Shown piece by piece: positions 5,909 through 40,333 of a DNA stretch of 64,000 bases. The DNA comes from Rhodospirillales bacterium (GTDB lineage: Bacteria; Pseudomonadota; Alphaproteobacteria; Rhodospirillales; Defluviicoccaceae). The notes below the pieces were generated by a model. That model saw nothing but the letters and a program-made list of their open reading frames with translations. It was not told the DNA's origin and did no database searches. Both the position numbers and the translations under genes were made by a program. The number at the start of each line of letters is the position of its first letter. The first letter of the stretch is position 1. The DNA is taken from contig REEP01000082.1 in NCBI GenBank assembly GCA_007695045.1, forward strand, positions 34,510 through 98,509, written 5' to 3'.

Positions 5909-5922
5909 GGCGGTTCAACAGC

Positions 5923-8292: not shown

Positions 8293-9731
8293 TTGCTGCC
8301 TCCTCGCACCACCGGAATACTGAGTTCCCGAATCTTCTTCCTGAGCGTGTTGCGGTTCAAGCCCAGGATCTCGGCGGCGCGAATCTGATTGCCACGGGTT
8401 GCCTCCAGCGTGAGAGACAGGAGCGGCCGTTCCACCTCCCGCATCACCCGATCGAACAGGCCGGGCGCGGGCAGGCCGTCGCCATGGGCACTGAAGTAGG
8501 TCTTGAGGTGCCGTTCCACCGAGTGGCCGAGGCCGTCCCCTTCCGGTTCCGATGGCGGCGGCGCGGTATCCGCCAGTTCCAGCTCGATGGTGTCCAGTCC
8601 GATCACGTCTTCGGAATGCAGGGCCGCCAGGCGGCGCACCAGGTTTTCCAGCTCGCGAATGTTGCCGGGCCAGCGATAGCTGCGCAGCCGGTTCATCGCC
8701 GCCTGATCGAGGATTTTGGCCGGCAACCCCTCCTCCGCCGCCTTGGCGAGGAAATGGCGGACCAGTTCCGGAATATCCGACGTGCGTTCGCGCAGCGGCG
8801 GCACCCGGATCGGCACAACATTGAGCCGGAAATACAGGTCTTCGCGGAACTGACCCTGGCGGATCAGGTGGCTGAGGTCGCGGTGCGTCGCCGCCACGAT
8901 CCGCACGTTGGCCCGAATCGGCGTGCGGCCGCCGACGGTCGTATATTCTCCCTCCTGAAGCACCCGCAACAGACGGGTTTGCGCCTCGGGCGGCATGTCA
9001 CCGATTTCGTCCAGGAACAGGGTGCCGCCATCCGCCTGTTCGAAGCGGCCGGTGCTGCGATGGGTGGCGCCGGTGAAGGCACCTTTCTCGTGGCCGAACA
9101 GTTCGCTTTCGATCAGTTCACGCGGGATCGCTGCCATGTTGATGGCAACGAAAGCCCCGTCCCGCCGCTTGCCGTAGGTATGAAGCGCGCGTGCCACCAG
9201 TTCCTTGCCGGTGCCCGATTCGCCGGTGATCAGGACGGTCAGGTCGGTGCCCATCAGCCGCGCCAGGGTCCGGTAGATTTCCTGCATGGCCGGTGACCGG
9301 CCGATCAGCGGCAACCCCTCATCCTGCTGCATAAGGTCTTCGGGGCTTGCTGCCGGTGCGCTTTTCACCGGCTCCAGCGCACGCCGAACCACAGCCAGCA
9401 GCTCGTTGAGATCGAAGGGCTTCGGGAGGTATTCGAAGGCTCCGCGCTCGGTCGCCTTGACGGCCGTGAGCAGGGTGCTCTGGGCGCTCATCACCACCAC
9501 CTTCAGCTCCGGGCGGATTTTGCGGATGCGCGGGATCAGGTCGAGCCCGTTCTCGTCCGGCATCAATACGTCGGTGATGACCACGTCGCCCTGGCCGTCG
9601 GCAACCCATCGCCACAAGGTCGCGGCGTTGCTTGTGGCGCGGACCTGGAAGCCGCCGCGTTCCAGCGCGGCGCTCACCACAGTCCGGATACCCGGATCGT
9701 CGTCGGCAACCAGCACCACGGCGTCGTTCAC
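8289..9731 (-). CDS. ntrC: Nitrogen regulation protein NtrC (NR-I)
   Basis: Receiver domain ([13 protein letters not shown]...DVLMPDENG), sigma-54 interaction domain ([23 protein letters not shown]) and a Fis-type HTH ([22 protein letters not shown]). Confidence 0.92.
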
Positions 9732-10846
9732 GCCCCCTCCTCCGCCGACGGCACCATCGGCAGCATGACGCGGAAGACCGTCCGTTTCGGCTGACTCTGG
9801 AACTCGATCACGCCGCCATGATCGCCGATGATCTTGGCGACCAGCGCCAGGCCGAGCCCGCTGCCGCGCGGCTTGGAGGTGACGAACGGGTCGAACAGAT
9901 GCGGTCTCAGGTCTTCCGGGATCCCTTCGCCGTTGTCCTGGACGCTGACCATCAGCGGCAGGTGCACCCGCGACCGCCGCCCCGGGACGGCGAAGCGGAC
10001 GCCATGCCAGTAGGCGGTAGTCATGACCAGTTCACCGCCGGGGTCGGGAGCCGCCTCGGCGGCGTTCTTGACCAGATTGAGGAACACCTGAGTCAACTGA
10101 TCGCGGTTGCCATAGACCGGCGGCAGCGACGGGTCGTAGCTTTCGACCACGTGGAGGTGGCGCCCGAAACTGCTCTTGGCCAACATCAGGACGCGATTGA
10201 GCACCTCGTGAATGTTCACACCCTCGCGCTGCAACGGACCGGTGGCCGAGAACACTTCCATGCGGTCGACCAGGGCACAGACGCGGTCCGCCTCCTCGCG
10301 AATCAGGCGGGTCAGGGGGCGATCGGCCGGTTCCACGCTCTGCTCCAGCAACTGGGCCGCCCCCCGGATCCCGGACACCGGGTTCTTCACCTCGTGTGCC
10401 AGCATCGCCGCCAGCGCGGTGACCGACCGGGCGGCGCCACGATGGGTCAACTGCCGGTCGATCTTGGCCGCGATCGACTGCTCTTGCAGATTGATCACGA
10501 CATAGCCCGCCAGTTCGGCGATGGGACACGCCTGGACGTTGACGAAATGATGGCCGACGCGCGGGCTCGACAGCGTGACATGGTATTCGGTGACGGGATG
10601 GCCGGCCTCCCGCGCCTGTCGGATGAGAGCGAACAGCGGACTGTCCGCCGGCAGCATGTCATCCAGTCTCTGCCCCTTCAAATACGCCGCGCTGCCCTGA
10701 AAGAACTGTTCGCCGGCCGTGTTGACGTGCACGATAGCGAGTTCCGGATCGACCACGGCGACCACATGCGCCAGGGCGTTGAGCACCGCGTCGGCATCGA
10801 TCGCGGTCCCCGCCGCCCGGCGAAGCTTGATGACACTCTTCTTCAT
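9728..10846 (-). CDS. ntrB: Nitrogen regulation sensor kinase NtrB (NR-II)
   Basis: PAS domain, an H-box ([19 protein letters not shown]) and a HATPase domain ([13 protein letters not shown]). It lies between dusB and ntrC. Confidence 0.9.
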
Positions 10847-20002: not shown

Positions 20003-22631
<2,629 letters not shown>

Positions 22632-25229: not shown

Positions 25230-25886
25230 CTATGCGACCTTCGGCTCGCGCCGCCGCGCCCCGAACCCGCTCAGGGCAAGGCCGGCCAAACCGAGGCCGA
25301 GGATGCCGAGGGTGGCCGGTTCGGCCACTTCCTGACCGGGGATGATGGAGGCCGTGACCTTGATCACCAGGTCGTCATGGTTGTCGTCGTTGCCGCCGCC
25401 CGAGTCGTCGTACGCGATATAGGCCATCGTGCCCAGACGACCGGTGGCGTCGCCGTCGATCATGCTGAGGAAGAAGCCGCGCCCATTGAGTTCTGCGGTG
25501 TTGTTGCCGATCTGCGGCAACAGGTTTGGCGCCACTGTCTGGAAAAAGAAGTCGATATCGCCAGCCGCAGCCTGGATGTAAGAGAAGGGTGCCTGCGAAC
25601 CGTTCTTGTTGAAGATCGTTCCGGCACCGCCGGCGGAGAAGATGTTGGTGAACCCGGCCTCGAAGCCCACAAACTCGAAGGTCAATTGAACGTTGGCGGC
25701 CGTGGTCTGCAAGCTCATCACGCTGGTGTTGAAAAAGCCCGCAACCCCGGGGATGACATCGTTCTGCGGGGTGGGCGTGACGCCGGCGTCGCCGCCGACG
25801 ATCTGAAGGAGGTTGGCCTCCGCCGCACCCGCCAAACCCGCGATGAGAGCGAAAGCAGCGACACTGCCAAGGATCTTGTTGCGCAT
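25230..25886 (-). CDS. PEP-CTERM sorting-domain secreted protein
   Basis: Signal peptide MRNKILGSVAAFALIAGLAGAAEA. C-terminal VAEPATLGILGLGLAGLALSGFGARRRE, i.e. (P)EP + TM + Arg cluster. YDDSGGGNDDNHDDLVIKV resembles the DUF4114-type acidic motif. The gene is visibly AT-richer than its surroundings. Confidence 0.8.
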   Translation of the reverse strand: MRNKILGSVAAFALIAGLAGAAEANLLQIVGGDAGVTPTPQNDVIPGVAGFFNTSVMSLQTTAANVQLTFEFVGFEAGFTNIFSAGGAGTIFNKNGSQAPFSYIQAAAGDIDFFFQTVAPNLLPQIGNNTAELNGRGFFLSMIDGDATGRLGTMAYIAYDDSGGGNDDNHDDLVIKVTASIIPGQEVAEPATLGILGLGLAGLALSGFGARRREPKVA

Positions 25887-26342
25887 CTTCGTGGTATCCT
25901 CAAGTCTGATGATGAATGGAGCAACCTGCTGCCATAGGTTGCACGCACGTTCCGTGCCAACTTCAACTAAGATATACAAATCAACCACTTAAGAAAAACG
26001 ACCCGCAATCCAGGCGCGCAGATGTGTAAAGTTTTCTTGACACCCGCAATGCCGGGACCGCCGGTGCCCCCTCAACGGCGGATAGATTTCTATGTTAGAT
26101 CAATGGATTATGAGGCGTGATCGCGGGGCCGACAAGGTGTCAGTTTTTTTTACACCGAGTCTGAGATTCTTTACACCTTTGGGTGGATAAGGTTGGGCAT
26201 GGAGCTGGGCATGAGAGAAATCGATCGCACCCGGACGCCAAGGGCCGCGGCGGATCAGGAATCCCGCAGCACCCGCCGCGCCACAGCCCACACCGCCAGC
26301 ACCCGTTTCGCCGATGCCACGGATGCTCGGCCCGCCGATGCC

Positions 26343-29149: not shown

Positions 29150-29437
29150 TTAGTGACCGGCGAACGGGCGCCACCCTGGGGTCGCGCCGTCAGCGCGCCG
29201 CATGCTGCAACTGGGACAACCGCGGTGAAAGGCGAGGATGATCAGCGGGATTCCCAGCAGTCCCAGCCAGCGCAGACCGCCCTCCAGCACGAACAGCATG
29301 GAAAGCACCGCGGCGGCCGGAACCAAGCGGACAATGAGGTCGGCGACGCGACCGAAGGTCCAGGATCGCCCGGTGTCCGGAGGACAGACCTTCGATTCGT
29401 TCGAGCAAACGGTGTTGTTGGCCGGGTCTTTCGTCAA
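29150..29437 (-). CDS. Small membrane protein, possibly DUF2892/YgaP-like
   Basis: 95-aa ORF (TTG start) just downstream of rpmE with two hydrophobic helices and a ...HRGCPSCSM... motif reminiscent of the DUF2892 G-x-CP box. This is a weak call. Confidence 0.4.
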   Translation of the reverse strand: MTKDPANNTVCSNESKVCPPDTGRSWTFGRVADLIVRLVPAAAVLSMLFVLEGGLRWLGLLGIPLIILAFHRGCPSCSMRRADGATPGWRPFAGH

Positions 29438-29440
29438 ACC

Positions 29441-29665
29441 TTACTCCTTCAGGCCGAAGTCCTTGAAGCGCTTCCGGAATTTGGCCAACTGGCCGCCGCT
29501 GTCCACCAGTCGATGGACGCCCGTCCAAGCCGGATGCGTCTTGATGTCGATGCCGAGCTTGAGCACATCGCCGGCGGCGCCGTAGGTCGACCGCGTCTGG
29601 TAGGTCGTGCCGTCCGTCATCTCAACCGTGATCTCGTGATAATCAGGATGTATGTTCTTTTTCAT
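29441..29665 (-). CDS. rpmE: 50S ribosomal protein L31
   Basis: [29 protein letters not shown]...HPAWTG...[11 protein letters not shown]. This is a non-Zn (no CxxC) alphaproteobacterial L31. Confidence 0.93.
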
Positions 29666-29719
29666 CGTCCGCCGCTCCATCATCGAGTCCGTGGGATATA
29701 GGCGAGGATCCAAGCCCGA

Positions 29720-30987: not shown

Positions 30988-32181
30988 TCAGCTCTGGGTG
31001 AGCTTGAGTTCGATCCGCCGGTTGCGGCGAAGCGCATCCGCGCTGTCCCCTTCGGTCAGCGGAACGAATTCGGCGAAGCCGGCGGCCGCCAGTCGGTGCG
31101 GCGGTATGCCTTGATCGATCATCAGACGGACGACGGAGATCGCCCGAGCGGTGGACAACTCCCAATTGGACGCATACCGGCCGGAGACGATCGGCACCTT
31201 GTCGGTATGGCCGTTGACCTGGAGCACCCAATCGAGGTCGTCGGGGATGTCTGTCGACAGATCCCGCAACGTTGCGGCCACCCGTTCCAGCTGGGCGCGC
31301 CCTTCCGGCCCGATCACCGCGGAGCCGGTATCGAACAGGATCTCCGACTGGAAGACGAACCGGTCGCCGACGATGCGAACGTCCGGGTGTTCGCCGAGCA
31401 CGGCCCTTAGCTTGCCGAAGAATTCCGACCGGTAGCGGGCCAGTTCCTGCACCCGGGTGGCGAGGGCCGCATTGAGGCGCTCGCCGAGATTGGCGATCTG
31501 CACGTTCTGGGCCAGCACCTCCGCTTCCGCGGCTTCCAGGGCGGCGTTCAGTTGGGTAATCTGATCGCGCAACGCCGCCATCTGGCGATTCAGCAGCGCC
31601 ACTTGGGCACGCGCGCTTTCGGACAGTTCGCGCTCGGCAATCAGGGCCTCGGCGGCGGAGTCAGCGCGGCGGCCCAGGTCCCGGATCTCCTGCTCCAGGT
31701 CGGCCTTGAGCGCCTGCAAGGCGGCAATATCGGCGGAGAGAGCGATCAGGCGCCGGTTCTGCGCTTCCAGTTGAGCCTGATCCGTTTCCCGACCCGCCAG
31801 CGCCGCCGTCAGCGCGCCTTCCAATCGGGCCACGTCGCTTTCCGCGCGCGCCGCCCGCTCGGAAGCGGCGCGCAAGGCGCTGCCGAGGTCGTCACGCGCA
31901 CTCAGCGAGGCCCGCAGGTCGGCCGAGATCTGAGCGAGGTTGGCACGCAGGCCGGCGCTGGCCTGGCGCTCCAGGCTGAGCAGTTCGGCCAGTTCATCCA
32001 CCTGATTGCGCAGATCCAGAAGAGCGCGATCGCGGCCTGAGAGCGATTCGGTGAGAAACACCTGGGCCAGAACAAACACCATCAGAAGGAAAATCACCAC
32101 CATCAACAATGCCGCCAGGGCATCAACAAAACCCGGCCAGATGTTGGTGGTGCGAGGCCGCCGTCGCGCGATCGCGGTCAT
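30988..32181 (-). CDS. MotB-like stator subunit with long coiled coil and C-terminal OmpA-like peptidoglycan-binding domain
   Basis: N-terminus IWPGFVDALAALLMVVIFLLMVF is a MotB/ExbD/TolR-type single TM helix with the conserved Asp. Next comes about 190 aa of heptad-rich Ala/Leu/Glu/Arg sequence. The OmpA_C-like end is ...VNGHTDKVPI...NWELSTARAISVVRLM...RRNRRIELKL. Confidence 0.8.
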   Translation of the reverse strand: MTAIARRRPRTTNIWPGFVDALAALLMVVIFLLMVFVLAQVFLTESLSGRDRALLDLRNQVDELAELLSLERQASAGLRANLAQISADLRASLSARDDLGSALRAASERAARAESDVARLEGALTAALAGRETDQAQLEAQNRRLIALSADIAALQALKADLEQEIRDLGRRADSAAEALIAERELSESARAQVALLNRQMAALRDQITQLNAALEAAEAEVLAQNVQIANLGERLNAALATRVQELARYRSEFFGKLRAVLGEHPDVRIVGDRFVFQSEILFDTGSAVIGPEGRAQLERVAATLRDLSTDIPDDLDWVLQVNGHTDKVPIVSGRYASNWELSTARAISVVRLMIDQGIPPHRLAAAGFAEFVPLTEGDSADALRRNRRIELKLTQS

Positions 32182-32194
32182 CGATCCAAACCCT

Positions 32195-33397
32195 TCAACG
32201 CTCCGGCTGTTCGGCCAAGGCCGCGATGGTCCGGGCCAGCAACTTGATGTCGCTGCGCACCTGCTGAATGATCTCGTCGCGGCCGGAGGCCAATTCTTCC
32301 AGCAGTCGGGCGACGTATACGTCCAGGTTGCGGATGTGCGCCTTGGTCGCCTCATCCATGCCCGCGGCGGGAGTCTGGCCGGCGGCATCGGCCAAGCGCG
32401 CCAGAACCGGCTTGAGTTCCGTCTGCTGTTCCGCCAAGCGCAGCATCAGGCTTTGTTCGGTCCGCATCTGATCGGTCAAGGTGCCGATATGCTCGGCCAG
32501 CGACATCAGGTGGTGGCCGGTGGCCGCTCGGCTTTCCTCGCCGCGGGCGATGACCCGTTGCAGGTTGTCCAGGCTCTCGGCCGTCTGCTCCAGCAGTGCC
32601 TGGACATAAGCCGGCACCGACCCGTCGCCTTCGTGCGCGAGGGTACCGCTGGACAGGCGGGTCACGCCGGACAGCCAGTCCTCCAGATCGTTGTAGAAGC
32701 GGTTCTGAGCCTGATTGGCCTGCAGATCGAGAAAGCCCAGCACGAGCGACCCGCCGAGCCCGAACAGCGATGAAGAAAAGGCCGTTCCCATGCCGGCCAA
32801 CGGGGCCTGCAAACCTTCCTTGAGGTCGGCAAACACCACGGCCAGGTCACGCCCTTCCAGACTCAGCCCGCCGATCACATCGGCCACGGCGCTGACCGTG
32901 CCGAGCAGGCCCCAGAACGTGCCAAGCAGACCGAGAAAGATCAGCAGGCCGATGGTGTAGCGCGACAGGTCACGGGATTCATCCAGGCGCGCGGCGATGC
33001 CGTCGAGCAACGAGCGCATGGCCAGGGCGGACAGACTGAGCCGGTCCTGGCGCTCCCGCAGCATGGTCGCCATCGGTGCCAGCAGACGGGGCGGCGCGCC
33101 TTCCGACGGCGCCGTGGCCGGCGCACGCCCCTGGCCGCCGGCCGGCGATGCAGCCGCGTGATCGACTTGGCGGCGAAACCGCTCAAGCCACGCCGTCTCG
33201 TGGCGCAGCATGATGACCTGGCGAAAATTGTAGATCACACCGAGAAGGAGAATGCCGATAATCAGCCCGTTCAAAGGGGCGTTGGCCAGAAACGCCTCCC
33301 GCAGCGGCACGAACAGGGCCGCCCCGGCGACCGCCACCGCCCCGACGAACACAGCCATTCTCACCAGAAATCGGCGCAGTCGGGTCATGGCGGGCAC
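32195..33397 (-). CDS. MotA/TolQ/ExbB proton-channel family protein with C-terminal coiled-coil tail
   Basis: Two N-terminal TM helices and a roughly 90-aa loop. The signature TM pair is LLIFLGLLGTFWGLLGTV ... GMGTAFSSSLFGLGGSLVLGFL. A roughly 170-aa helical tail follows. 13-bp gap to the MotB-like gene. Start is GTG 33397 or ATG 33388. Confidence 0.8.
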   Translation of the reverse strand: MPAMTRLRRFLVRMAVFVGAVAVAGAALFVPLREAFLANAPLNGLIIGILLLGVIYNFRQVIMLRHETAWLERFRRQVDHAAASPAGGQGRAPATAPSEGAPPRLLAPMATMLRERQDRLSLSALAMRSLLDGIAARLDESRDLSRYTIGLLIFLGLLGTFWGLLGTVSAVADVIGGLSLEGRDLAVVFADLKEGLQAPLAGMGTAFSSSLFGLGGSLVLGFLDLQANQAQNRFYNDLEDWLSGVTRLSSGTLAHEGDGSVPAYVQALLEQTAESLDNLQRVIARGEESRAATGHHLMSLAEHIGTLTDQMRTEQSLMLRLAEQQTELKPVLARLADAAGQTPAAGMDEATKAHIRNLDVYVARLLEELASGRDEIIQQVRSDIKLLARTIAALAEQPER

Positions 33398-33470
33398 GAC
33401 TCCCAGGGATAACGGGACGTTGATTCGCGGCGGCGCGTCAGGACAGGCGGTTGAGTCGACCGCTCACCGC

Positions 33471-34214
33471 TTAGCGCCGCGCCACCGACAAGTCCACACG
33501 GTTGAACGGCTCGTCTTCAACTTGGTCACCCAAAGCGCGAACATCCATGCGCGTTCCGGCAATGCCCCGATCGATCAGATGGCCGCGCACGGCGAGGGCA
33601 CGGGCGAGCGACAGCCGACGCGCCGTGCTGGGCGTCAGGTCCTCCCCGGCGGCGTAAGCCACCACTTGCACGCGCAAGGTTTCATCAGCTTCGAGCCGAC
33701 GGGCGATGCGATCCAGCGCCAGCGCCGAACCTTCCGCCAGGTCCGCCGATCCCGCTCCGAAGGCGATGCGGAGATGCGGTGCCGCCGGCGATACCGGACG
33801 ATCCGGCCGAGCCGCCAGCGCCGTCTCTTCCGAGATATCAGGGATCGGAAGAAGATCGGGCGAACCGGCCGGATCCACCGGCAAGGTCGGCCGTGCCGTT
33901 CCGTTCACAGCCGCCTCCGGCTGCCTCTCTTGCTCAGGCGGAGACTGCTCAGGCGGAGGCGGCACACCGGCCGGCGGCGATGGCTTCGGCAACAGCCGGG
34001 CCGTGGCCGCCATTGATTGGTGCACAGGTTCCCGGTCCGGTGCCGCCGGCGGTTCGGCCCCGACCGACCGATCAATCCCGGCCGGCGGCGGCTTTTCCGT
34101 GGGCGACAGCACCTCGAGCGCCGCGCCGGCATCACGACAGAGACCACAGACCGCCACAAGGGCGATGGCGCAAACAAGGAGCGCCCGGTGCAGGCGGCGT
34201 ACTGGGATCATCAC
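33471..34214 (-). CDS. Secreted proline-rich protein with degenerate OmpA-like C-terminal domain
   Basis: Signal peptide (LLVCAIALVAVCGLCRDAGAA), a Pro-rich linker and the C-terminal LRIAFGAGSADL...RVQVVAYAAGED...ARRLSLARALAVRGHLIDRGI...NRVDL (OmpA_C topology but lacking the GHTD consensus). Confidence 0.7.
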   Translation of the reverse strand: MMIPVRRLHRALLVCAIALVAVCGLCRDAGAALEVLSPTEKPPPAGIDRSVGAEPPAAPDREPVHQSMAATARLLPKPSPPAGVPPPPEQSPPEQERQPEAAVNGTARPTLPVDPAGSPDLLPIPDISEETALAARPDRPVSPAAPHLRIAFGAGSADLAEGSALALDRIARRLEADETLRVQVVAYAAGEDLTPSTARRLSLARALAVRGHLIDRGIAGTRMDVRALGDQVEDEPFNRVDLSVARR

Positions 34215-34362: not shown

Positions 34363-35553
34363 TCAGGTGCGCAATAGATCGGCCCGGTCCGGCCGTTCCC
34401 AGGGCAGATCAAGATCGCGGCGGCCGACCTGGCCATAGGCGGCAAGACGGCGATAGAAGCCGTCGCGGGCCGCACCCGGCAGCCGGCGCAATCCGAGGTC
34501 ACGGATGATAGCGGCGAGCCGGAAGTCGAAGACGCGGCCGAGCCTGGCAGCGATGTCCGCATCGGGGATGCGGCCGGTGCCGAATGTTTGGACCTGCAGG
34601 CTCACCGGCCGCGACAAGCCGATCGAATAGCTCAACTGGACCTCGCATTCGGTGGCAAGGCCCGCGCTGACGACGTTGACGGCAGCGTAACGCGCGGCGT
34701 AGGTGCCGCTGCGGGCGATCCGGGTCGGGTCCTTGCCGCTCAAGGCGGAATCGCTCTGCCGGGCATACTCCCCGTAGGTATCGATGCCGTTCTTGCGCCC
34801 CGTGAGCCCGGCGTGGGTGGCGGGCCCGCCCACCATCAGCGGACCGCCCGGATTGATGAACAGTCGGGTCCGGTCGTCCGGGCGCACCGCCTCGTCGGCA
34901 AACGCCGGCTCGACCACGAGATCCATGAGATCCTGGTGCAGGCGATTTTGATCCGGCATCGGCCCCTCGCTGAGCGCCGCCACCAGGGTGATGCCGTGGA
35001 TGCGCGCAGGCCGGTCGTCGCGGTACTCCACCGCCACCTGGGTCTTGCCGTCGGGGGCGAGATAGGCGAGTTGACCCTGCTTGCGGACGTCGGCAAGACG
35101 GTGCGCGATCCTGTGGGCCAGCCAAATCGGCAACGGCATCAGCCCCGGTGTCTGCGTGCAGGCGAAGCCGAACACGGTCGACTGATTCTGGACGAGCATG
35201 CCATCGATTTCCGCCTCGTCCATCTCCGCCTCGTCGCGGGTCGATCGGCCCTCGGACGAAAGCGCATTCAGGCTGGTCATCACGGTGCAGGTGTTGGGAT
35301 CGAACCCGGCGTGGTCGTAGCCGGCCTCGACGATGATCCGGCGCGCCAGTCCGGCGATATCCACCACCGCATCGGACGCGAAGCGGGCGGCGATGAACAG
35401 GATACCGGTCGCGATCGCACACTCCGCCGTGATCACGGAGAAGGGGTCCTGTTGCAGGAACCGGTCGACCAAGCCGTCGCTGATCTGGTCGCACAGCTTG
35501 TCGGGGTGCCCTTCGGTGACCGATTCGGAGGTGAAGATGAAATCCCCCTTCAT
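34363..35553 (-). CDS. S-adenosylmethionine synthetase family protein, divergent paralog
   Basis: MKGDFIFTSESVTEGHPDKLCDQISD, GLTGRKNGIDTYGEY, LSGKDPTRIARSGTYAARYAAVNVVSAGLA. The canonical GAGDQG loop reads VQNQST and GGGAFSGKD reads SDSALSGKD. The start ATG overlaps the stop of the upstream ATPase (ATGA). Confidence 0.85.
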   Translation of the reverse strand: MKGDFIFTSESVTEGHPDKLCDQISDGLVDRFLQQDPFSVITAECAIATGILFIAARFASDAVVDIAGLARRIIVEAGYDHAGFDPNTCTVMTSLNALSSEGRSTRDEAEMDEAEIDGMLVQNQSTVFGFACTQTPGLMPLPIWLAHRIAHRLADVRKQGQLAYLAPDGKTQVAVEYRDDRPARIHGITLVAALSEGPMPDQNRLHQDLMDLVVEPAFADEAVRPDDRTRLFINPGGPLMVGGPATHAGLTGRKNGIDTYGEYARQSDSALSGKDPTRIARSGTYAARYAAVNVVSAGLATECEVQLSYSIGLSRPVSLQVQTFGTGRIPDADIAARLGRVFDFRLAAIIRDLGLRRLPGAARDGFYRRLAAYGQVGRRDLDLPWERPDRADLLRT

Positions 35554-38500
35554 GGCTGTGCTGCCCTTTCGTCGTGGGGTGGCGGTGCCGGCTTGAGCGC
35601 CTCGTTGATCACGAACGGGAGCACGGCGGCGGCACCGATGACCGCCGCATCCGTCATGCCAAGGGCTTGCAGGCCCAGGAGCCGGCGCAACCGCGGCACC
35701 GCCAGGGTCGCCCCCTGCACCGCCAGCGAGCCGCCGAGCGCTGCCGTCATCGCAGGGTTGCGGGGCAGACGTCCGGCCCGGAACAGGCCGTGGCGGTCCG
35801 ACCGGCAGGTGATGGCATGCAGAAGCTGGGCCGTGATCAGACTGAGGAAGGTCACGGCACCGGCCCGCGCGTCGGGACCGTAGCGCACATGTCCGTATGC
35901 GGCCGCACCAAGCGCCGCGGCGCTGATCACCGCGCCTTCCCGTGCGGCACGCTTCAGGTCCCCCGCCCGCAGGATCGCTTCACCGGGATCCCGCGGCTTC
36001 TCCGCCATGACGTCCCCGTCGGGAGGTTCCATGGCCAGCGCCAGTGCCGGGAACACGTCGGTCAGCAGATTGATCCACAGCAGCTGCATCGGTGTCAAAG
36101 TCTGGCGCAAACCAAGCGCCGTCGTCCCCAGCATCACCAGGATCTCGCTCAGGTTGGTGGCGAGGAGGAAGCGCAGCGCATTGCGCACATTGTGGTAGAG
36201 GGTGCGGCCGTGGCTGATGGCGACGATGATGGTTTCCGGATTGTCGTCCTTCAGAACCACGTCGGCCACCTCCCGGGCGACGTCGGTGCCGCTCTGTCCC
36301 ATGGCCAGGCCGATGTTGGCCGCCTTCAGGGCCGGGCTGTCGTTGACCCCGTCGCCGGTCATCGCCACCACCTTGCCGCCCTGTTGCAGCGCCTGCACGA
36401 TCTGAAGCTTGTGGCCCGGACTGACTCGGGCGAACACATGCGCCCGCTTGGCGAGCGAGGCGAGCACTTCCGGCTCCAGCTTCTCCATGTGGGTGGAGTC
36501 CAGAATCTCGATCTGCTGACCGCGACCGAGGCGGAGCTGGCGCGCAACCGCATAGGCGGTGGCACTCTGATCCCCGGTGATCATCACCGTCCCGATACCG
36601 GCCTTGTGGAAGCTGTCCATCAGGTCGGCCATGCCGGGGCGCACCGGATCGGCCATGCCGACCAGGCCAAGCCAGGTCAACTCAGGCTCGCCGTCTTCGC
36701 GGTCCGCCGCGTTCTCGGCGAAGGCGAAGCCCAACACCCTCAGGGCCTCGCCGCCCATGCGCTCGTTGGCCGCCTCGATCCGTTGGCGGTCGGCATCGGT
36801 CATCGCCTCGCGGTCGCCACCGATCAACTGCCAGCGGCACATCTCCAGAACCGCACTCGGATTGCCTTTCACGCAGAACAAGGGGCCATCGCCGTTCACT
36901 TCGTGGGTGGTCCCCATGAACTGCCGGCTTTCGGTCCGATGGTTCGTCGTGCTGCCGGGGGCCGAGCGGCGGAGCGCCGCGACGTCGATGCCGAATTCCA
37001 TCGCCATGCGGACCAACGCCGTTTCCGTGCCCGAGCCCTGCAGTTCGATGGCACCCTGATCGTCCTTGATCTCTGCCTCGTTGCACAGCGCCGCCACCGA
37101 CCCGAGTTTCTGCAGTTCCGCGCTGTCCGCAGGGTCCACGCGTTCTCCGGCCTCGGTCAGGGTGCCGTCCGACAACCGGTACCGCCGGCCACCGCAGACG
37201 ATGCTGACGACCGACATGCGGTTGAGGGTGAGCGTGCCGGTCTTGTCGAAGCAAACCACCTGCACCGCGCCCAGGGTCTCCACCGCGTCGAGCCGGCGGA
37301 CCAGAACGTTGTGCCGGCGCATCTTGCCGATGCCGATGGCCAGAGTGGTGGTGGCGATGGTGGGCAGCCCCTCGGGCACGGCGGCCACGGCCAGAGACGC
37401 GGCCGATTTCAGCATCGGCAGAACGCCCTGCCCCCGCGCCAGCCCGAGCACGAAAACCACCGCGCAGATGCCGGTGCTGATCCAGGCGAGCTGGCCGCCC
37501 ATCCGGTCCAGTTGCACCTGCATCGGCGTCTCGGGCGTGGCGGCGGTACCGATCATCGCCTGAATCCGGCCGATCTCGGTCTCCTTGCCCGTGGCCACCA
37601 CCAGGGCGCGCCCGCTGCCACCGGTGGGCACGGTACCCCGAAACACCATGTTCGTGCGGTCGCCAAGGGGAACGACGTCACCCTCAGGGCGCGCCACGGT
37701 CTTGGTCACGGACATGCTTTCGCCGGTGAGGCTGGACTCATCCACCGTGAGGTCATCGGCGGCGATGACGCGGGCATCGGCAGCGATGAAGCTGCCCGCT
37801 TCCAGCACCTGCAGATCGCCGGGCACCACGTCTTCCATCGGCACGCCCTGGGCTTGACCGTCCCGCAGCACGGTGACGACCGTGGGCGCCGTTTCGCCGA
37901 GTGCGGCTATCGTCTCTTCCGATTTGACCTCGGTCACGTAACCGATGGCGGCGTTGATGGCGACCACACCCATGATCACCACCGCGTCCACCACCCCGCC
38001 GGTGGCCGCCGACAGCACCGCCGAGGCCGCCAGCATGGCCACCGGCAGGCTCGCCACCTGTTCCCAGAGCATGGCCAGGGTGGAGCGATGGCTCGCCTTG
38101 TCCAGGGCATTGGGTCCGAACCGTGCCAGCCGTCGGTCCGCCTCGGCGCTGCTCAGACCCCGCGAGGCGCAGCACTCAAGCCGTCGCGCAACCTCGTCGA
38201 CGTCGAACCGATGCCAGGGGAGCGGCGGTTCGCCGGCGGTCGCCGGCTCGTTCGCCGCACCGCGCCGCCGCGAGGGCCGTGCCGCTGGCCGTGCATCACC
38301 CTGTTGGGGTGACGGATTCGATCGCGGCCCCGCAGCATCGGTCGCGTGGTTGGGCGTTCCTTCTTCCACGGCGTCGGCGACCGCCCGGATCACGGCGTCC
38401 ACAGGCAAGCCGGGATCGAACGATACCAGGACGCTGCCGCTCCAGCGCGATGCCTCGACGTCGCGCACGCCGCCCAGGCGCCGGATCCGCGCGGGCAGCG

Positions 38501-38690
38501 CCTCTTGCAAAGCGGGATCCCCGCGCAACGACGGCACCCGTAGCCGCACCCGACCGGCGACGACGGCATGCAGCGGGATCACCGCGCCGCTCGACGGCGG
38601 GCGATTCGCGGCATCGCGCCGGTCTCCGGCTGCCTCGCCGGCGGAACCCGCAGGTTCGGGCCCTTGACGCAGAGCATCCATGAGGTTCAT
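35550..38690 (-). CDS. P2-type cation-transporting ATPase (Ca2+/Mg2+-ATPase-like) with N-terminal HMA-like domain
   Basis: CFDKTGTLT (phosphorylation site), VPEGLP (TM4), MITGDQSATA, VAMTGDGVNDSPALKAANIGLAMG, LLWINLLTDVFPALALAMEPPD (TM6). About 110 N-terminal residues have ferredoxin-like beta-alpha-beta pattern without a CxxC. Confidence 0.9.
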   Translation of the reverse strand: MNLMDALRQGPEPAGSAGEAAGDRRDAANRPPSSGAVIPLHAVVAGRVRLRVPSLRGDPALQEALPARIRRLGGVRDVEASRWSGSVLVSFDPGLPVDAVIRAVADAVEEGTPNHATDAAGPRSNPSPQQGDARPAARPSRRRGAANEPATAGEPPLPWHRFDVDEVARRLECCASRGLSSAEADRRLARFGPNALDKASHRSTLAMLWEQVASLPVAMLAASAVLSAATGGVVDAVVIMGVVAINAAIGYVTEVKSEETIAALGETAPTVVTVLRDGQAQGVPMEDVVPGDLQVLEAGSFIAADARVIAADDLTVDESSLTGESMSVTKTVARPEGDVVPLGDRTNMVFRGTVPTGGSGRALVVATGKETEIGRIQAMIGTAATPETPMQVQLDRMGGQLAWISTGICAVVFVLGLARGQGVLPMLKSAASLAVAAVPEGLPTIATTTLAIGIGKMRRHNVLVRRLDAVETLGAVQVVCFDKTGTLTLNRMSVVSIVCGGRRYRLSDGTLTEAGERVDPADSAELQKLGSVAALCNEAEIKDDQGAIELQGSGTETALVRMAMEFGIDVAALRRSAPGSTTNHRTESRQFMGTTHEVNGDGPLFCVKGNPSAVLEMCRWQLIGGDREAMTDADRQRIEAANERMGGEALRVLGFAFAENAADREDGEPELTWLGLVGMADPVRPGMADLMDSFHKAGIGTVMITGDQSATAYAVARQLRLGRGQQIEILDSTHMEKLEPEVLASLAKRAHVFARVSPGHKLQIVQALQQGGKVVAMTGDGVNDSPALKAANIGLAMGQSGTDVAREVADVVLKDDNPETIIVAISHGRTLYHNVRNALRFLLATNLSEILVMLGTTALGLRQTLTPMQLLWINLLTDVFPALALAMEPPDGDVMAEKPRDPGEAILRAGDLKRAAREGAVISAAALGAAAYGHVRYGPDARAGAVTFLSLITAQLLHAITCRSDRHGLFRAGRLPRNPAMTAALGGSLAVQGATLAVPRLRRLLGLQALGMTDAAVIGAAAVLPFVINEALKPAPPPHDERAAQP

Positions 38691-39154: not shown

Positions 39155-39526
39155 GGCGCCGTTCCGGCATCCCGAGCGGGCTCGTCTCGCCGGCTCCAGG
39201 CCGCTGCGAGGACCGGTCGCGGCGCCTGCGGCCGGCGATCCCCACGGATGCGAACCGTGTAACGACGCCCGGGCAACTTAGACCAGCGAATTGCAACCCC
39301 CGTTCGGGCCTTTCCGGCGCCTTCACAGTCAACCGATGTAGCCCGAAGAGATGATTGCACGGACAGTGCCGTCAAGATATGATGACCTGTCGACATTAGA
39401 CAATATTATGCCGCCAACCTGTTGGATTGAGGAAGAATCCGGCGCCAAACAGAAATATCGGTGTTTATAGTGGATTTCGGCTTGGCCGAGAGCAGCCGAG
39501 CCCTGTGCCTGACGGGAGCAGCGTCG

Positions 39527-40333
39527 ATGACACGCAAAACGGGACGTGTTGCCGCTCTGGCGGCTTCAGCAACCATGGTCGTCATGGCAGGAGCGGCGGA
39601 CGCAGCGGTCACCTTCATCGACCGCTGGGCGGAACAAGACCTCGACCTGAAATACTCTATCGACAAAATATATGAGAATAACATCGTCAGAGTGAGTTAT
39701 GGAGAGGATGAACGGATACCTTACCCATCCGAGAACGGCGCCGCAGTCGTGGGCATCAGGGATTCGAAGGCCAAGTTCTTTGATATTATTGTGGATTTAA
39801 CAGACTCTTCTGAGTCGAGGACATCGTTTGGCGCCGAATTCATTGTCTTTAACGATACGCCCTTCAATTGGACGGACTACCACTTCGTATTTTACAATGA
39901 GGATTTTTCTGAACGTCTGGATTTGACTGGAATGCTTGTTACGGCCATATCGCCATGTGCATTTGGAGCGGATGTTAATGGTTTAATATGTCTGCCTGAG
40001 CTTGGCCCCCTGCAACCTTGGCTGTCCGACGAAGAAGACCTGCGCTTTGACGGCAGCGAACTGGAGTTCGTTTCGTGGCCCGCAAATGAGGGCAATTATC
40101 ATGAGGTTGGGGCTGGGTGGTTCTACTCGTTTGGCTTCGCGGGCGACGATCCGCTCCCCGACAGGTTCGGCATTCGCCAGATTGCCACGACGGCGATCCC
40201 GGAACCCGGCTCTGTTGCGGTACTGGGCGTGGGATTGCTCGCCATCGGGTTGCTGACCGTGCGGCGGTGGAGACGCAGCCAAGGCGGAGTTGACCTGCCG
40301 CGGGAACCAGACGTGAGCGACGGGCGCTTCTGA
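39527..40333 (+). CDS. PEP-CTERM sorting-domain secreted protein (second copy type)
   Basis: Signal peptide MTRKTGRVAALAASATMVVMAGAADA. C-terminal IPEPGSVAVLGVGLLAIGLLTVRRWRR is a textbook PEP-CTERM. The 5' half of the gene and its upstream region are visibly AT-rich. Confidence 0.75.
   Translation: MTRKTGRVAALAASATMVVMAGAADAAVTFIDRWAEQDLDLKYSIDKIYENNIVRVSYGEDERIPYPSENGAAVVGIRDSKAKFFDIIVDLTDSSESRTSFGAEFIVFNDTPFNWTDYHFVFYNEDFSERLDLTGMLVTAISPCAFGADVNGLICLPELGPLQPWLSDEEDLRFDGSELEFVSWPANEGNYHEVGAGWFYSFGFAGDDPLPDRFGIRQIATTAIPEPGSVAVLGVGLLAIGLLTVRRWRRSQGGVDLPREPDVSDGRF

What the first reader, a model, noticed from the sequence alone, without database searches (positions are those of the whole stretch)
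30988..34214. Orphan stator-like (5:2 ion-motor type) module with coiled-coil extensions on both subunits plus a degenerate OmpA-like partner
Three co-directional genes with 13-bp and 73-bp gaps sit at the centre of the window.

**1. 32195-33397.** This protein carries the MotA/TolQ/ExbB channel signature helices (LLGTFWGLLGTV ... GMGTAFSSSLFGLGGSLVLGFL). Unusually, a helical, heptad-rich cytoplasmic tail of about 170 residues follows.

**2. 30988-32181.** This protein starts like MotB/TolR/ExbD, with a single TM helix carrying the conserved Asp (PGFVDALAALLMVV), and ends in a canonical OmpA-like peptidoglycan-binding domain (GHTD...NWELSTARA...NRRIEL). Between them it inserts about 190 residues of coiled-coil-like sequence. 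As a continuous helix (0.15 nm per residue) that insert would be on the order of 25-30 nm, which is at least a full periplasm width.

**3. 33471-34214.** This is a signal-peptide, proline-rich protein with an OmpA-like fold in which the usual GHTD consensus is lost.

**Context.** There are no flagellar, TonB/ExbD, Tol-Pal, gliding or Zorya (ZorC/D) genes anywhere in the 64 kb. The trio sits in a housekeeping context (rpmE, MFS) and is co-directional with the MetK-like/P-type ATPase pair upstream. A long tail on the MotA-like subunit is the hallmark of ZorA in Zorya anti-phage systems, but the partner genes here are different.

I could not assign this architecture to any characterised stator family from memory. 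It looks like an uncharacterised ion-driven envelope machine.
Basis: partly seen in the sequence, partly recalled or inferred. Interest (0 to 1): 0.75.

Follow-up and report, generated by a model that had tools for sequence, protein, structure and literature searches.

The report
Uncharacterised stator-like envelope motor family
Three minus-strand genes encode a proton-channel motor pair of the flagellar-stator/Tol/Zorya type, carrying long coiled coils, plus a degenerate cell-wall-binding partner; the set is conserved across many Alphaproteobacteria, belongs to no characterised motor system, and its function is still unknown.

Summary
Three co-directional minus-strand genes are present:
- a secreted, Pro-rich, degenerate OmpA-like protein (33471-34214);
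- a MotA/ExbB/ZorA-fold membrane protein with a 175-residue helical tail (32195-33397);
- a MotB-like protein with an invariant TM Asp, about 200 residues of heptad coiled coil and a canonical OmpA domain (30988-32181).

The pair belongs to a large, vertically inherited alphaproteobacterial family. It was found in at least 594 species and in 560 clusters at 50% identity. The A and B genes are adjacent in 77 of 77 loci, and the small partner is present in 49 of 71. The context is always housekeeping.

The family fails membership tests for flagellar MotAB, Tol-Pal/Ton and Zorya. Only the B subunit matches a named but uncharacterised NCBIfam model (PRK09039).

New result: the B stalk varies from 158 to 536 residues between species, almost always in whole heptads (29 of 46 distinct lengths share one phase, P = 4e-14).

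The family is not wholly unstudied. The 'motA/motB' genes of non-flagellated Komagataeibacter hansenii are orthologues. Published work reports polar localisation, elongated cells on overexpression and viable knockouts.

Best reading: a peptidoglycan-anchored, proton-driven 5:2 motor with an envelope or division-related role. The mechanism is inferred, not shown.

The parts
33471..34214 (-). Small secreted OmpA-like partner (247 aa). It has a signal peptide (residues 1-31, 34122-34214), a Pro-rich linker and a degenerate OmpA-like domain (residues 152-231, 33522-33761).
   Evidence: Pfam OmpA scores 35.3 bits against a cut-off of 27.2. There is one N-terminal hydrophobic segment and no lipobox. 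The family consensus lacks the GHTD Asp but keeps ARRLSLSRALAVR. The gene lies immediately upstream of A in 49 of 71 loci and in Komagataeibacter.
32195..33397 (-). A subunit (400 aa as the longest ORF; probably 397 aa from the ATG at 33388). It is a MotA/ExbB/ZorA-fold ion-channel subunit with a cytoplasmic tail.
   Evidence: Pfam MotA_ExbB scores 17.6 bits, below the 22.9 cut-off. PADLOC ZorA1 scores 49 bits over residues 144-316. The AF2 model has pLDDT 80. Foldseek hits are only ExbB, TolQ, ZorA, MotA and PomA. The family is conserved over its full length.
33302..33358 (-). A subunit TM1 (residues 14-32). TM2 follows at 33218-33280 (residues 40-60).
   Evidence: Supported by the hydropathy scan and AF2 helices 3-27 and 40-83. 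Four Arg residues precede TM1, so the N-terminus is probably cytoplasmic. That gives a 4-TM topology like MotA.
32888..32959 (-). A subunit TM3 (residues 147-170, YTIGLLIFLGLLGTFWGLLGTVSA). It carries invariant G156, G159, T160, W162, G163 and L164, and nearly invariant T167.
   Evidence: This segment aligns to the GLFGTVWGI helix of ExbB/TolQ.
32723..32803 (-). A subunit TM4 (residues 199-225, PLAGMGTAFSSSLFGLGGSLVLGFLDL). It carries invariant P199, G202, M203, F207, S210, G213, L214, S217 and G221.
32375..32611 (-). A subunit tail helix (residues 263-341, 79 residues), with heptad periodicity.
   Evidence: AF2 helix 263-341. Periodicity is 3.50 with power 77, against a shuffle 99th percentile of 67.
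32213..32353 (-). A subunit terminal helical module (residues 349-395, EATKAHIRNLDVYVARLLEE...LLARTIAALA). It follows a flexible linker (residues 342-348).
   Evidence: AF2 shows a break at 342-347 and a helix at 349-395. H354, R356, N357, R364, G372, R373, R381, R389 and T390 are conserved. The module is repeated about 7 times in a 614-aa homologue.
30988..32181 (-). B subunit (397 aa). It is a MotB-like protein with a TM helix, a coiled-coil stalk and an OmpA-type peptidoglycan-binding domain.
   Evidence: NCBIfam NF006543 (PRK09039.1-2) scores 435.6 bits against a cut-off of 305. Pfam OmpA scores 57 bits. The gene lies downstream of A in 77 of 77 loci.
32059..32136 (-). B subunit TM helix (residues 16-41). 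The invariant Asp20 codon is at 32122-32124, within the WPGFVD motif.
   Evidence: W15, P16, G17, V19 and D20 are invariant in 46 sequences. WPG[FYW]VD is present in all loci read. The codon was checked.
31396..32049 (-). B subunit periplasmic coiled-coil stalk (residues 45-262). The proximal part varies in length (45-175), a hinge-like break follows (176-186), and the distal block is conserved in length (187-262).
   Evidence: AF2 helices 16-175 and 187-262. Periodicity is 3.50. Motif-to-motif length is 158-536 residues and is congruent to 4 mod 7 in 167 of 189 sequences.
30994..31380 (-). B subunit MotB-type OmpA-like peptidoglycan-binding domain (residues 268-396).
   Evidence: Foldseek best hits are MotS, PomB and H. 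pylori MotB, with E from 1e-11 to 1e-10. G324, T326, D327, N339, L342, S343 and R346 are invariant.

Best explanation
The A and B genes encode a proton-driven inner-membrane motor of the 5:2 class, with five A subunits around two B subunits. It belongs to a distinct, vertically inherited alphaproteobacterial family that is neither a flagellar stator, nor Tol/Ton, nor Zorya.

Proposed mechanism:
1. The two B transmembrane helices sit in the A ring, and their invariant Asp20 carries protons past the conserved Thr/Ser/Pro positions of A TM3 and TM4.
2. The B dimer continues from the membrane, with no flexible linker or plug, into a parallel heptad coiled-coil stalk.
3. The stalk ends in a MotB-type peptidoglycan-binding domain, which fixes B to the cell wall.
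4. Proton flow then turns the A ring, or switches its conformation, around the fixed B dimer.
5. The work is delivered through the cytoplasmic tail of A. This tail is a heptad helix followed by a flexibly linked, conserved 'HxRNLD' helical module, which probably binds a partner encoded elsewhere.
6. The secreted, degenerate OmpA-like protein is a frequent periplasmic accessory.

The biological role is most likely in the cell envelope, associated with the cell pole or division.

Shown here:
- gene architecture
- fold of both subunits
- invariant residues
- coiled-coil phasing
- co-conservation of the genes
- orthology to the K. hansenii genes

Inferred, not shown:
- 5:2 stoichiometry
- proton use
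- rotation
- which part delivers the output
- the cellular role
For: - **A subunit.** Its fold matches only 5:2-motor A subunits. T160 and P199 are invariant and T167 nearly so; with other conserved Gly and Ser positions they lie in the two channel helices. TM3 aligns to the Thr-bearing helix of ExbB/TolQ.
- **B subunit.** It has a single TM with an invariant Asp and a MotB-type domain with invariant peptidoglycan-binding Asp and Arg.
- **Gene pairing.** A and B are adjacent in 77 of 77 loci, separated here by 13 bp.
- **Stalk.** It shows 3.50-residue periodicity, and its length is quantised in heptads across 158-536 residues (binomial P = 4e-14 on distinct lengths).
- **Tail.** It is conserved over its length in the Rhodospirillales-type members aligned here (the S. 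meliloti tail end diverges), and its terminal module is repeatable.
- **Inheritance.** Housekeeping synteny is conserved from Rhodospirillales to Acetobacteraceae and Rhizobiaceae. There are no defence, flagellar or Tol genes in the window.
- **Experiments on orthologues.** In K. hansenii, GFP fusions localise to the poles. Overexpression gives elongated or chained cells. Knockouts are viable with altered cellulose. The species has no flagellar genes (PMC6570709, PMC6315621, PMC7347698; orthology shown).
Against: - Stoichiometry and rotation were not tested. Only monomer AF2 models were possible, without coordinates.
- Pfam MotA_ExbB is below threshold (17.6 against 22.9). Sequence matches to solved stators are marginal (E 0.008 to 0.8).
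- Stalk lengths correspond to roughly 20 to 75 nm if extended. That does not fit any single membrane-to-wall distance, so the geometry of the anchor is unexplained.
- No tail partner is encoded nearby.
- The K. hansenii phenotypes come mainly from overexpression and light microscopy. They do not distinguish a division role from a surface-spreading or indirect role.
Confidence: 0.6

Rival explanations
1. Outward, Tol/Ton-like force transducer. The A ring is the stationary energiser. The B coiled coil acts like a built-in TolA domain II and is the moving element. It pulls on or remodels peptidoglycan, the small OmpA-like protein (acting like Pal) or the outer membrane at the septum and new poles.
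For: - The best fold matches for A are ExbB and TolQ.
- The system has a long periplasmic helical element plus an OmpA-like partner gene.
- K. hansenii proteins localise to poles, and overexpression gives elongated or chained cells, resembling Tol phenotypes. The authors raise this possibility themselves (PMC6315621, PMC6570709).
Against: - The periplasmic domain of B is MotB-type with intact peptidoglycan-binding residues, which argues for a fixed anchor.
- The small partner is not a lipoprotein and is absent from about 30% of loci, including S. meliloti.
- The strongly conserved cytoplasmic tail of A has no role in this model.
- S. meliloti already has an essential TolQR-Pal system (PMC7327166).
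Confidence: 0.15
2. Static tether. The pair is a structural link from inner membrane to peptidoglycan, or a polar scaffold. The channel is vestigial or only regulatory, and no mechanical work is done.
For: - Stalk length varies widely between species, and knockouts are viable (PMC7347698).
- Some relatives show faint Pfam matches to crescentin (a bacterial cytoskeletal filament protein) and similar coiled-coil families.
Against: - The Asp, Thr, Pro and Gly positions of the channel are invariant or nearly so across more than 500 diverged clusters. That is hard to explain without ion translocation.
Confidence: 0.1
3. Zorya-like anti-phage sensor whose effector genes lie elsewhere in the genome.
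For: - The best defence-library hits are ZorA1 (49 bits) and ZorB3 (78 bits).
- ZorA of Shewanella gives the best TM-score and rmsd among fold hits.
- A helical tail on the A subunit is the Zorya hallmark (PMC11946911).
Against: - NCBIfam ZorA models score about 12-14 bits against cut-offs of 100-500.
- No ZorC, ZorD or ZorE-type neighbours occur in the window or in 84 loci.
- The tail is 175 residues, far shorter than the ZorA tail, which projects about 70 nm (PMC11946911).
- Synteny between core genes is vertical and order-spanning, unlike a defence island.
Confidence: 0.07
4. Auxiliary flagellar stator, as the automatic annotation 'flagellar motor protein MotA / chemotaxis protein MotB' implies.
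For: - A has a 4-TM topology, and the periplasmic domain of B is MotB-type.
- NCBIfam MotD scores 110 bits on the C-terminal part of B.
- Source annotations use these names.
Against: - All MotA and MotB equivalog models score far below their cut-offs.
- The cytoplasmic loop between TM2 and TM3 is short and contains a variable, disordered insertion.
- There is no plug or linker, and no flagellar gene context.
- Fold matches to MotA and PomA are the weakest (E 0.14).
- Orthologues are present and conserved in K. hansenii, which has no flagellar genes (PMC6315621).
Confidence: 0.04

Closest known systems
K. hansenii 'MotA/MotB' (Jacek et al. 2018, 2019; PMC6315621, PMC6570709)
   Same: These are the same family and are orthologues.
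- A contig matching the published cloning primers at 21/21, 20/20, 19/20 and 22/23 bases encodes a 348-aa A and a 320-aa B.
- They are 48% and 40% identical to the window proteins over their full length.
- The small OmpA-like gene and inositol monophosphatase lie upstream.
   Different: - Both proteins are shorter, with a stalk motif distance of 158 residues against 235 here.
- The papers treat them as motility-related MotAB homologues. They do not recognise the family, the coiled coils or the third gene.
NCBIfam NF006543-NF006546 / PRK09039 'peptidoglycan-binding protein'
   Same: B passes the curated cut-off for NF006543 (435.6 against 305 bits) and matches three sibling models above or near their cut-offs.
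   Different: The model only names the protein and attaches no function. No curated model exists for the A subunit.
Zorya ZorAB (type I), anti-phage 5:2 motor
   Same: - The A subunit has a cytoplasmic helical tail.
- The B subunit has a TM Asp and a dimeric peptidoglycan-binding domain and lacks a MotB-type plug.
- Zorya gives the best library hits (PMC11946911).
   Different: - There are no effector genes.
- The tail is about 175 residues with a flexible break, not a 70-nm continuous bundle.
- A has 4 predicted TM helices against 3 in ZorA.
- B carries a coiled coil of about 200 residues that ZorB lacks.
- The genes are housekeeping and vertically inherited.
Flagellar stators MotAB, PomAB and MotPS
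   Same: - A has a 4-TM topology.
- The C-terminal domain of B is structurally closest to MotS, PomB and H. pylori MotB.
- The genes are an adjacent A-B pair.
   Different: - Scores are below all curated MotA and MotB cut-offs.
- There is no conserved rotor-interface loop and no plug or linker.
- A long tail and a long stalk are added.
- The pair is present in a bacterium without flagella.
TolQRA-Pal and ExbBD-TonB
   Same: - The fold of A ranks ExbB and TolQ first.
- A long periplasmic helical element and an OmpA-like partner recall TolA and Pal.
- The K. hansenii phenotypes resemble Tol phenotypes.
   Different: - B has an OmpA-type periplasmic domain, not a TolR/ExbD-type one.
- There are no TolA, TolB, CpoB or TonB genes.
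- The partner is not a lipoprotein.
- S. meliloti carries this pair and also has a separate TolQR-Pal (PMC7327166).

Membership tests
5:2 ion-driven motor superfamily (MotAB / ExbBD / TolQR / ZorAB) | The A subunit has the MotA/ExbB/TolQ channel fold. | tested here: met
   Foldseek of the AF2 model returns only ExbB, TolQ, ZorA, MotA and PomA, mostly at probability 0.9-1.0 but only 0.4-0.6 for MotA/PomA. TM-scores normalised to the target are up to 0.56. By sequence alone the result is borderline: Pfam PF01618 scores 17.6 bits against a cut-off of 22.9.
5:2 ion-driven motor superfamily | The B subunit has a single N-terminal TM helix carrying a universally conserved Asp. | tested here: met
   D20 in WPGFVD is invariant in 46 aligned sequences and in all loci read.
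5:2 ion-driven motor superfamily | Conserved polar Thr/Ser residues on the two inner A helices line the ion path. | tested here: met
   T160 is invariant, and T167, T205, S208 and S210 are invariant or nearly so. TM3 aligns to the GTV helix of ExbB/TolQ.
5:2 ion-driven motor superfamily | A5B2 stoichiometry and rotation coupled to ion flow. | not testable with these tools
   Only monomer prediction is available. This needs multimer modelling, cryo-EM or biophysics.
Flagellar stator MotAB/PomAB | The proteins pass curated MotA and MotB equivalog models. | tested here: not met
   B scores 42-86 bits on the MotB/MotS models (110 bits on MotD) against cut-offs of 250-312. A has no MotA hit at all.
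Flagellar stator MotAB/PomAB | The genes occur in flagellar context and only in flagellated organisms. | tested here: not met
   No flagellar genes occur in the 64 kb window. Orthologues are conserved in K. hansenii, which is reported to lack flagellar genes (PMC6315621).
Zorya (ZorAB plus effectors) | ZorC/ZorD (type I), ZorE (type II) or ZorF/G (type III) genes lie next to ZorAB. | tested here: not met
   Neighbours here are MetK, a P-type ATPase, an MFS transporter and L31. Neighbours in 82 loci are efp, inositol monophosphatase, thiE, epmAB, an ABC transporter, Hsp20 and rpmE.
Zorya (ZorAB plus effectors) | The proteins pass curated ZorA and ZorB models, and the ZorA tail is long. | tested here: not met
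   NCBIfam ZorA_4 scores 13.7 bits against 500, and ZorA_2 scores 12.2 against 100. PADLOC hits are partial. The tail is 175 residues, against a tail that projects about 70 nm in E. coli ZorA (PMC11946911).
Tol-Pal / Ton | A TolR/ExbD-type B subunit is present, with TolA/TonB, TolB and a Pal lipoprotein encoded alongside. | tested here: not met
   B has a MotB-type OmpA domain. The window contains no such genes. The small partner has no lipobox.
NCBIfam NF006543 (PRK09039.1-2) peptidoglycan-binding protein | The whole-protein score is above the curated cut-off. | tested here: met
   B scores 435.6 bits against a cut-off of 305, aligned over residues 3-396.
OmpA-like peptidoglycan-binding domain (PF00691) | The domain score is above the gathering threshold, and the Asp (GHTD) and Arg (LSxxRA) that bind diaminopimelate are conserved. 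| tested here: met
   For B: 57.1 bits, with D327 and R346 invariant.
OmpA-like peptidoglycan-binding domain (PF00691), small partner | The same two features as above. | tested here: inconclusive
   The domain score passes (35.3 against 27.2 bits). The GHTD Asp is replaced by AYAxG across the family, while the Arg motif is kept. Binding competence is unknown.

The most novel reading that the evidence does not exclude
This is a new functional class of 5:2 motor and a core housekeeping machine of many Alphaproteobacteria. A rigid, heptad-phased B2 coiled-coil shaft of lineage-specific length couples the wall-binding domain to the ion channel. The A5 ring drives a cytoplasmic tail that ends in a repeatable binding module. 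Together they link the proton-motive force to pole or division-site envelope remodelling, or to a flagellum-independent surface-spreading mechanism of the kind hinted at in K. hansenii. Either role would be distinct from swimming, gliding, Ton import, Tol constriction and phage defence.
Probability: 0.3. Interest if true: 0.8.

Novelty: new variant of a known kind. Interest (0 to 1): 0.65.

Why it matters
- **A further class of 5:2 motor.** These motors are known to power swimming, gliding, nutrient import, outer-membrane constriction and phage defence. This family would be an additional, very widespread member. It appears in at least 594 species and includes plant symbionts, acetic acid bacteria and Azospirillum. 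Its output and function are unknown.
- **Misleading annotation.** The genes are routinely labelled as flagellar MotA/MotB. That label has already steered experimental interpretation in Komagataeibacter.
- **A testable handle.** The heptad-quantised, variable-length stalk allows a clean experiment: compare 7-residue with 3- or 4-residue insertions. This would ask whether mechanical phase between the ion channel and the wall anchor matters in this motor class.
- **Biotechnology.** In K. hansenii, overexpressing or disrupting these genes changes the structure of the cellulose produced.

Tried and rejected
- **Rgs growth-pole proteins of S. meliloti.** I recalled them as possible matches. The paper shows RgsB, RgsC and RgsF are unrelated proteins (an M15 peptidase, a Sel1-repeat protein and others), and its supplements mention no MotA- or OmpA-like protein.
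- **Mapping the S. meliloti orthologues to SMc locus numbers.** My guessed numbering (SMc03992/3) was contradicted, because SMc03994 is reported as ribosomal protein S21. I therefore found no Tn-seq or fitness data.
- **Literature searches.** Searches for PRK09039, for reviews of 5:2 motor diversity and for non-flagellar MotAB in Rhodospirillales found no description of this family. The mBio 2025 MotAB phylogeny groups all non-flagellar relatives together as 'generic ion transporters'.
- **Taxonomy of distant members.** Cluster look-ups returned no organism names.
- **Extra domains.** Pfam scans of unusually long A homologues found none.
- **RNA elements.** An Rfam scan of the window found nothing.
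- **Operon signals.** The promoter and terminator scan of the operon region gave only chance-level matches.
- **Periplasmic ruler idea.** I rejected the idea that the stalk spans a fixed distance, because its length varies more than threefold between species.

Full report
**1. What is in the sequence.**

All three genes lie on the minus strand. Read 5' to 3' on that strand, the order is:

| Gene | Coordinates |
|---|---|
| P-type ATPase | 35550-38690 |
| MetK | 34363-35553 |
| Small OmpA-like protein, 247 aa | 33471-34214 |
| A subunit, 400 aa | 32195-33397 |
| B subunit, 397 aa | 30988-32181 |
| MFS transporter | 29720 to about 30895 |
| rpmE | 29441-29713 |

A probably starts at the ATG at 33388. 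A GGGAG lies 11 nt upstream, and homologues begin MTRP.

I scanned 40 of the other 41 likely genes in the window against Pfam; the 95-codon ORF at 29150-29437 was not scanned. They encode:
- NtrBC/NtrYX and TrkA;
- the pyruvate dehydrogenase complex, enolase and FtsB;
- two glycosyltransferases;
- a molybdate ABC transporter, RNase D and ribosomal protein S4;
- PhaC, RecJ and similar proteins.

Nothing flagellar, Ton, Tol or defence-related is present. Rfam finds no RNA family.

**2. The A subunit.**

By sequence it is only marginally recognisable:
- Pfam MotA_ExbB scores 17.6 bits against a gathering score of 22.9.
- The only stator among PDB sequence hits is a Shewanella ZorA, at E = 0.008.
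- PADLOC's ZorA1 model scores 49 bits over residues 144-316.

The AF2 model was built from 70 sequences and has pLDDT 80. Its helices are 3-27, 29-38, 40-83, 107-115, 124-177, 185-251, 263-341 and 349-395. The top 50 Foldseek hits listed against the PDB are all 5:2-motor A subunits. ExbB and TolQ rank first (E about 1e-3, probability 1.0). A type I ZorA gives the best TM-score (0.56) and rmsd (6.2 Å). MotA and PomA are weakest.

Hydropathy, together with four Arg residues before the first helix, indicates four TM helices and a cytoplasmic N-terminus.

Invariant residues cluster in TM3 (G156, G159, T160, W162, G163, L164; T167 is nearly invariant) and in TM4 (P199, M203, F207, S210, G213, L214, G221). 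TM3 aligns with the Thr-bearing helix of ExbB/TolQ.

The 175-residue tail has three parts:
- a 79-residue helix with 3.50-residue hydrophobic periodicity, above the 99th percentile of shuffles;
- a low-confidence Pro/Ala/Gly linker (residues 342-348);
- a conserved terminal helix, DEATKAHIRNLDVYVARLLEE...LLARTIAA.

In one 614-aa homologue this terminal module is repeated about seven times, separated by Pro/Ala-rich linkers. That pattern suggests a binding module rather than part of a rigid rod.

**3. The B subunit.**

It passes the curated NCBIfam model NF006543 (PRK09039.1-2, 'peptidoglycan-binding protein') at 435.6 bits against a cut-off of 305. It falls far below every MotB, MotS and MotD cut-off.

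W15, P16, G17, V19 and D20 are invariant. The WPG[FYW]VD motif is present in every locus I read.

The AF2 model gives one helix from the TM to residue 175, a break at 176-186, a second helix at 187-262, and then an OmpA fold. The closest solved relatives of that fold are the periplasmic domains of MotS, PomB and H. pylori MotB, with E from 1e-11 to 1e-10. The peptidoglycan-binding Asp (GHTD, D327) and Arg (R346) are invariant.

**4. The stalk is a heptad-quantised coiled coil of variable length.**

Residues 45-175 show a sharp 3.50-residue periodicity and its 7/3 harmonic.

I measured the distance from the WPGxVD motif to the YRSEFF motif at the base of the OmpA domain. It ranges from 169 to 536 residues in 189 distinct sequences, and it is 158 in Komagataeibacter. 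The window has the modal value, 235.

The distance is congruent to 4 mod 7 in:
- 167 of 189 sequences;
- 55 of 74 species-level loci;
- 29 of the 46 distinct lengths (binomial P = 4e-14).

No other modulus from 5 to 11 (moduli 5, 6, 8, 9 and 11 were tried) shows such concentration.

In 136 of 189 sequences a SARA-like motif lies exactly 61 residues before YRSEFF, so the variation is confined to the membrane-proximal part. My motif picking favoured the 61-residue spacing, so this last figure is indicative only.

The stalk is therefore a continuous coiled coil whose register is preserved between the TM dimer and the wall-binding domain. Its length corresponds to roughly 20 to 75 nm if extended, and is not held constant. 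That rules out a simple 'one periplasm width' ruler. I cannot say how rods of such different lengths all reach the wall; this is unexplained.

**5. The third gene.**

Pfam OmpA scores 35 bits on residues 152-231. Orthologues range from 88 to 519 aa. They have a Sec-type signal peptide and no lipobox, a Pro/Ala-rich linker, and in 19 of 54 a short VxVDLSVL-like motif just after the signal peptide. The domain consensus replaces GHTD with AYAxG but keeps ARRLSLSRALAVR.

**6. Distribution and co-conservation.**

The best 80 are Rhodospirillales in the broad sense: Azospirillum, Defluviicoccus, Elioraea, Roseomonas, Kiloniella, Nitrospirillum and Thalassobaculum. The closest is a Rhodospirillales MAG, at 87% identity.
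- B follows A in 77 of 77 loci with enough downstream sequence. The small gene precedes A in 49 of 71.
- The other recurrent neighbours are efp, inositol monophosphatase, thiE, epmA/epmB, an MFS or ABC transporter, Hsp20 and rpmE. None suggests a function.
- MetK and the ATPase are not conserved neighbours.
- S. meliloti carries the pair in the same synteny: thiE - Sel1 - inositol monophosphatase - A - B - ABC - rpmE. Its A is 46% identical to the window's and its B 44%. Its stalk distance is 179, also 4 mod 7.
- This is vertical, order-spanning inheritance between core genes. It is not a defence island.

**7. Prior experimental work.**

A full-text search led to Jacek et al., who studied 'motA' (348 aa) and 'motB' (321 aa) of K. 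hansenii. They report that this bacterium has no flagellar or pilus genes (PMC6570709, PMC6315621).

I scanned metagenome contigs with their motA cloning primer and obtained one contig. All four cloning primers match it, at 21/21, 20/20, 19/20 and 22/23 bases. It encodes, in order:
- inositol monophosphatase;
- a 283-aa degenerate OmpA-like protein;
- a 348-aa A subunit, 48% identical to the window's (E = 2e-84);
- a 320-aa B subunit, 40% identical (E = 1e-80).

The K. hansenii genes are therefore orthologues of this trio.

Reported phenotypes:
- Overexpression gives markedly elongated cells, chains or filaments.
- Colony spreading on soft agar increases about threefold.
- The cellulose network becomes looser.
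- MotA-GFP and MotB-GFP are polar, and bipolar in long cells.
- Disruption mutants are viable and make denser cellulose (PMC7347698, citing Jacek 2019b, which I could not read).

The authors left the role open: an unknown motility mechanism, division or transport.

**8. Interpretation.**

The features that define a 5:2 motor and that can be tested in silico are all met: the fold of A, the single TM with Asp in B, the polar channel residues and the adjacent gene pair. Stoichiometry and rotation cannot be tested here.

Membership of the flagellar stator, Zorya and Tol/Ton families each fails at least one defining feature (see the membership table).

The most economical mechanism follows MotAB and ZorAB. 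B2 is fixed to peptidoglycan, proton flow through Asp20 turns A5 around it, and the work goes to the A tail. I give this 0.6.

The main rival (0.15) reverses the direction of output, as in Tol, Ton and GldLM. In that model the coiled coil is the working element in the periplasm. The polar localisation and division-like phenotypes fit either model.

A purely static tether (0.10) is disfavoured by the invariant channel residues. A Zorya-like defence role (0.07) and a flagellar role (0.04) are disfavoured by gene context, scores and phylogenetic distribution.

**9. Novelty and score.**

The family is visible in databases and has been handled experimentally under a misleading name. I found no description of four things:
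- the family as a distinct motor class;
- its dual coiled-coil architecture;
- the heptad-phased variable stalk;
- the conserved third gene.

I rate it a new variant of a known kind and score interest at 0.65. The reasoning is that the family is large and unexplained, belongs to an actively studied class of machines and offers clear experiments. Against that, its function is still only inferred.

Noticed in passing
P0302 (614-aa homologue of the A subunit); corresponds to window 32213-32353: In some homologues the C-terminal 'LAHLRNLDQxxRQLVxLTE' helix of the A tail is repeated about seven times, with Pro/Ala-rich linkers between copies. This suggests a modular binding motif rather than a rigid rod.
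   Followed up: partly
Loci L006, L009, L025, L043, L083 and others (small OmpA-like proteins upstream of A): Many orthologues of the small partner carry a short conserved VxVDLSVL-like motif directly after the signal peptide (19 of 54 by a strict pattern). It resembles a beta-strand 'box' motif. It is weak or absent in the window's copy.
   Followed up: partly
window 33080-33148 (A residues 84-106): The window's A subunit has an Ala/Pro/Gly-rich insertion (AASPAGGQGRAPATAPSEGAPP) in the cytoplasmic loop. Most relatives lack it, and AF2 models it as disordered.
   Followed up: no
window 34363-38690, minus strand: The gene for a 1046-aa P-type cation ATPase, with an N-terminal HMA_2-like region, overlaps the start of a bona fide metK by 4 bp. 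This pairing is not found next to the motor genes in any of the 84 related loci.
   Followed up: partly
L085 = CP090106.1 (PLSDB record): A 3.72-Mb S. meliloti record labelled 'plasmid pSymB' carries chromosome-type genes (rpmE, purE/purK, thiE). It is evidently the chromosome, mislabelled in the plasmid collection.
   Followed up: no
window 92-985 (+), 21495-22631 (+), 25230-25988 (-), 39461-40333 (+): Four sizeable ORFs (252-378 aa) have no Pfam match at E ≤ 1e-4; three of them (all but 39461-40333) also passed my coding-like GC3 filter.
   Followed up: no
window 4481-10846, minus strand: Two sigma-54 response regulators and two sensor kinases lie in tandem. This is the NtrB-NtrC-NtrY-NtrX arrangement typical of Alphaproteobacteria, with Dus upstream and TrkA downstream.
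   Followed up: no
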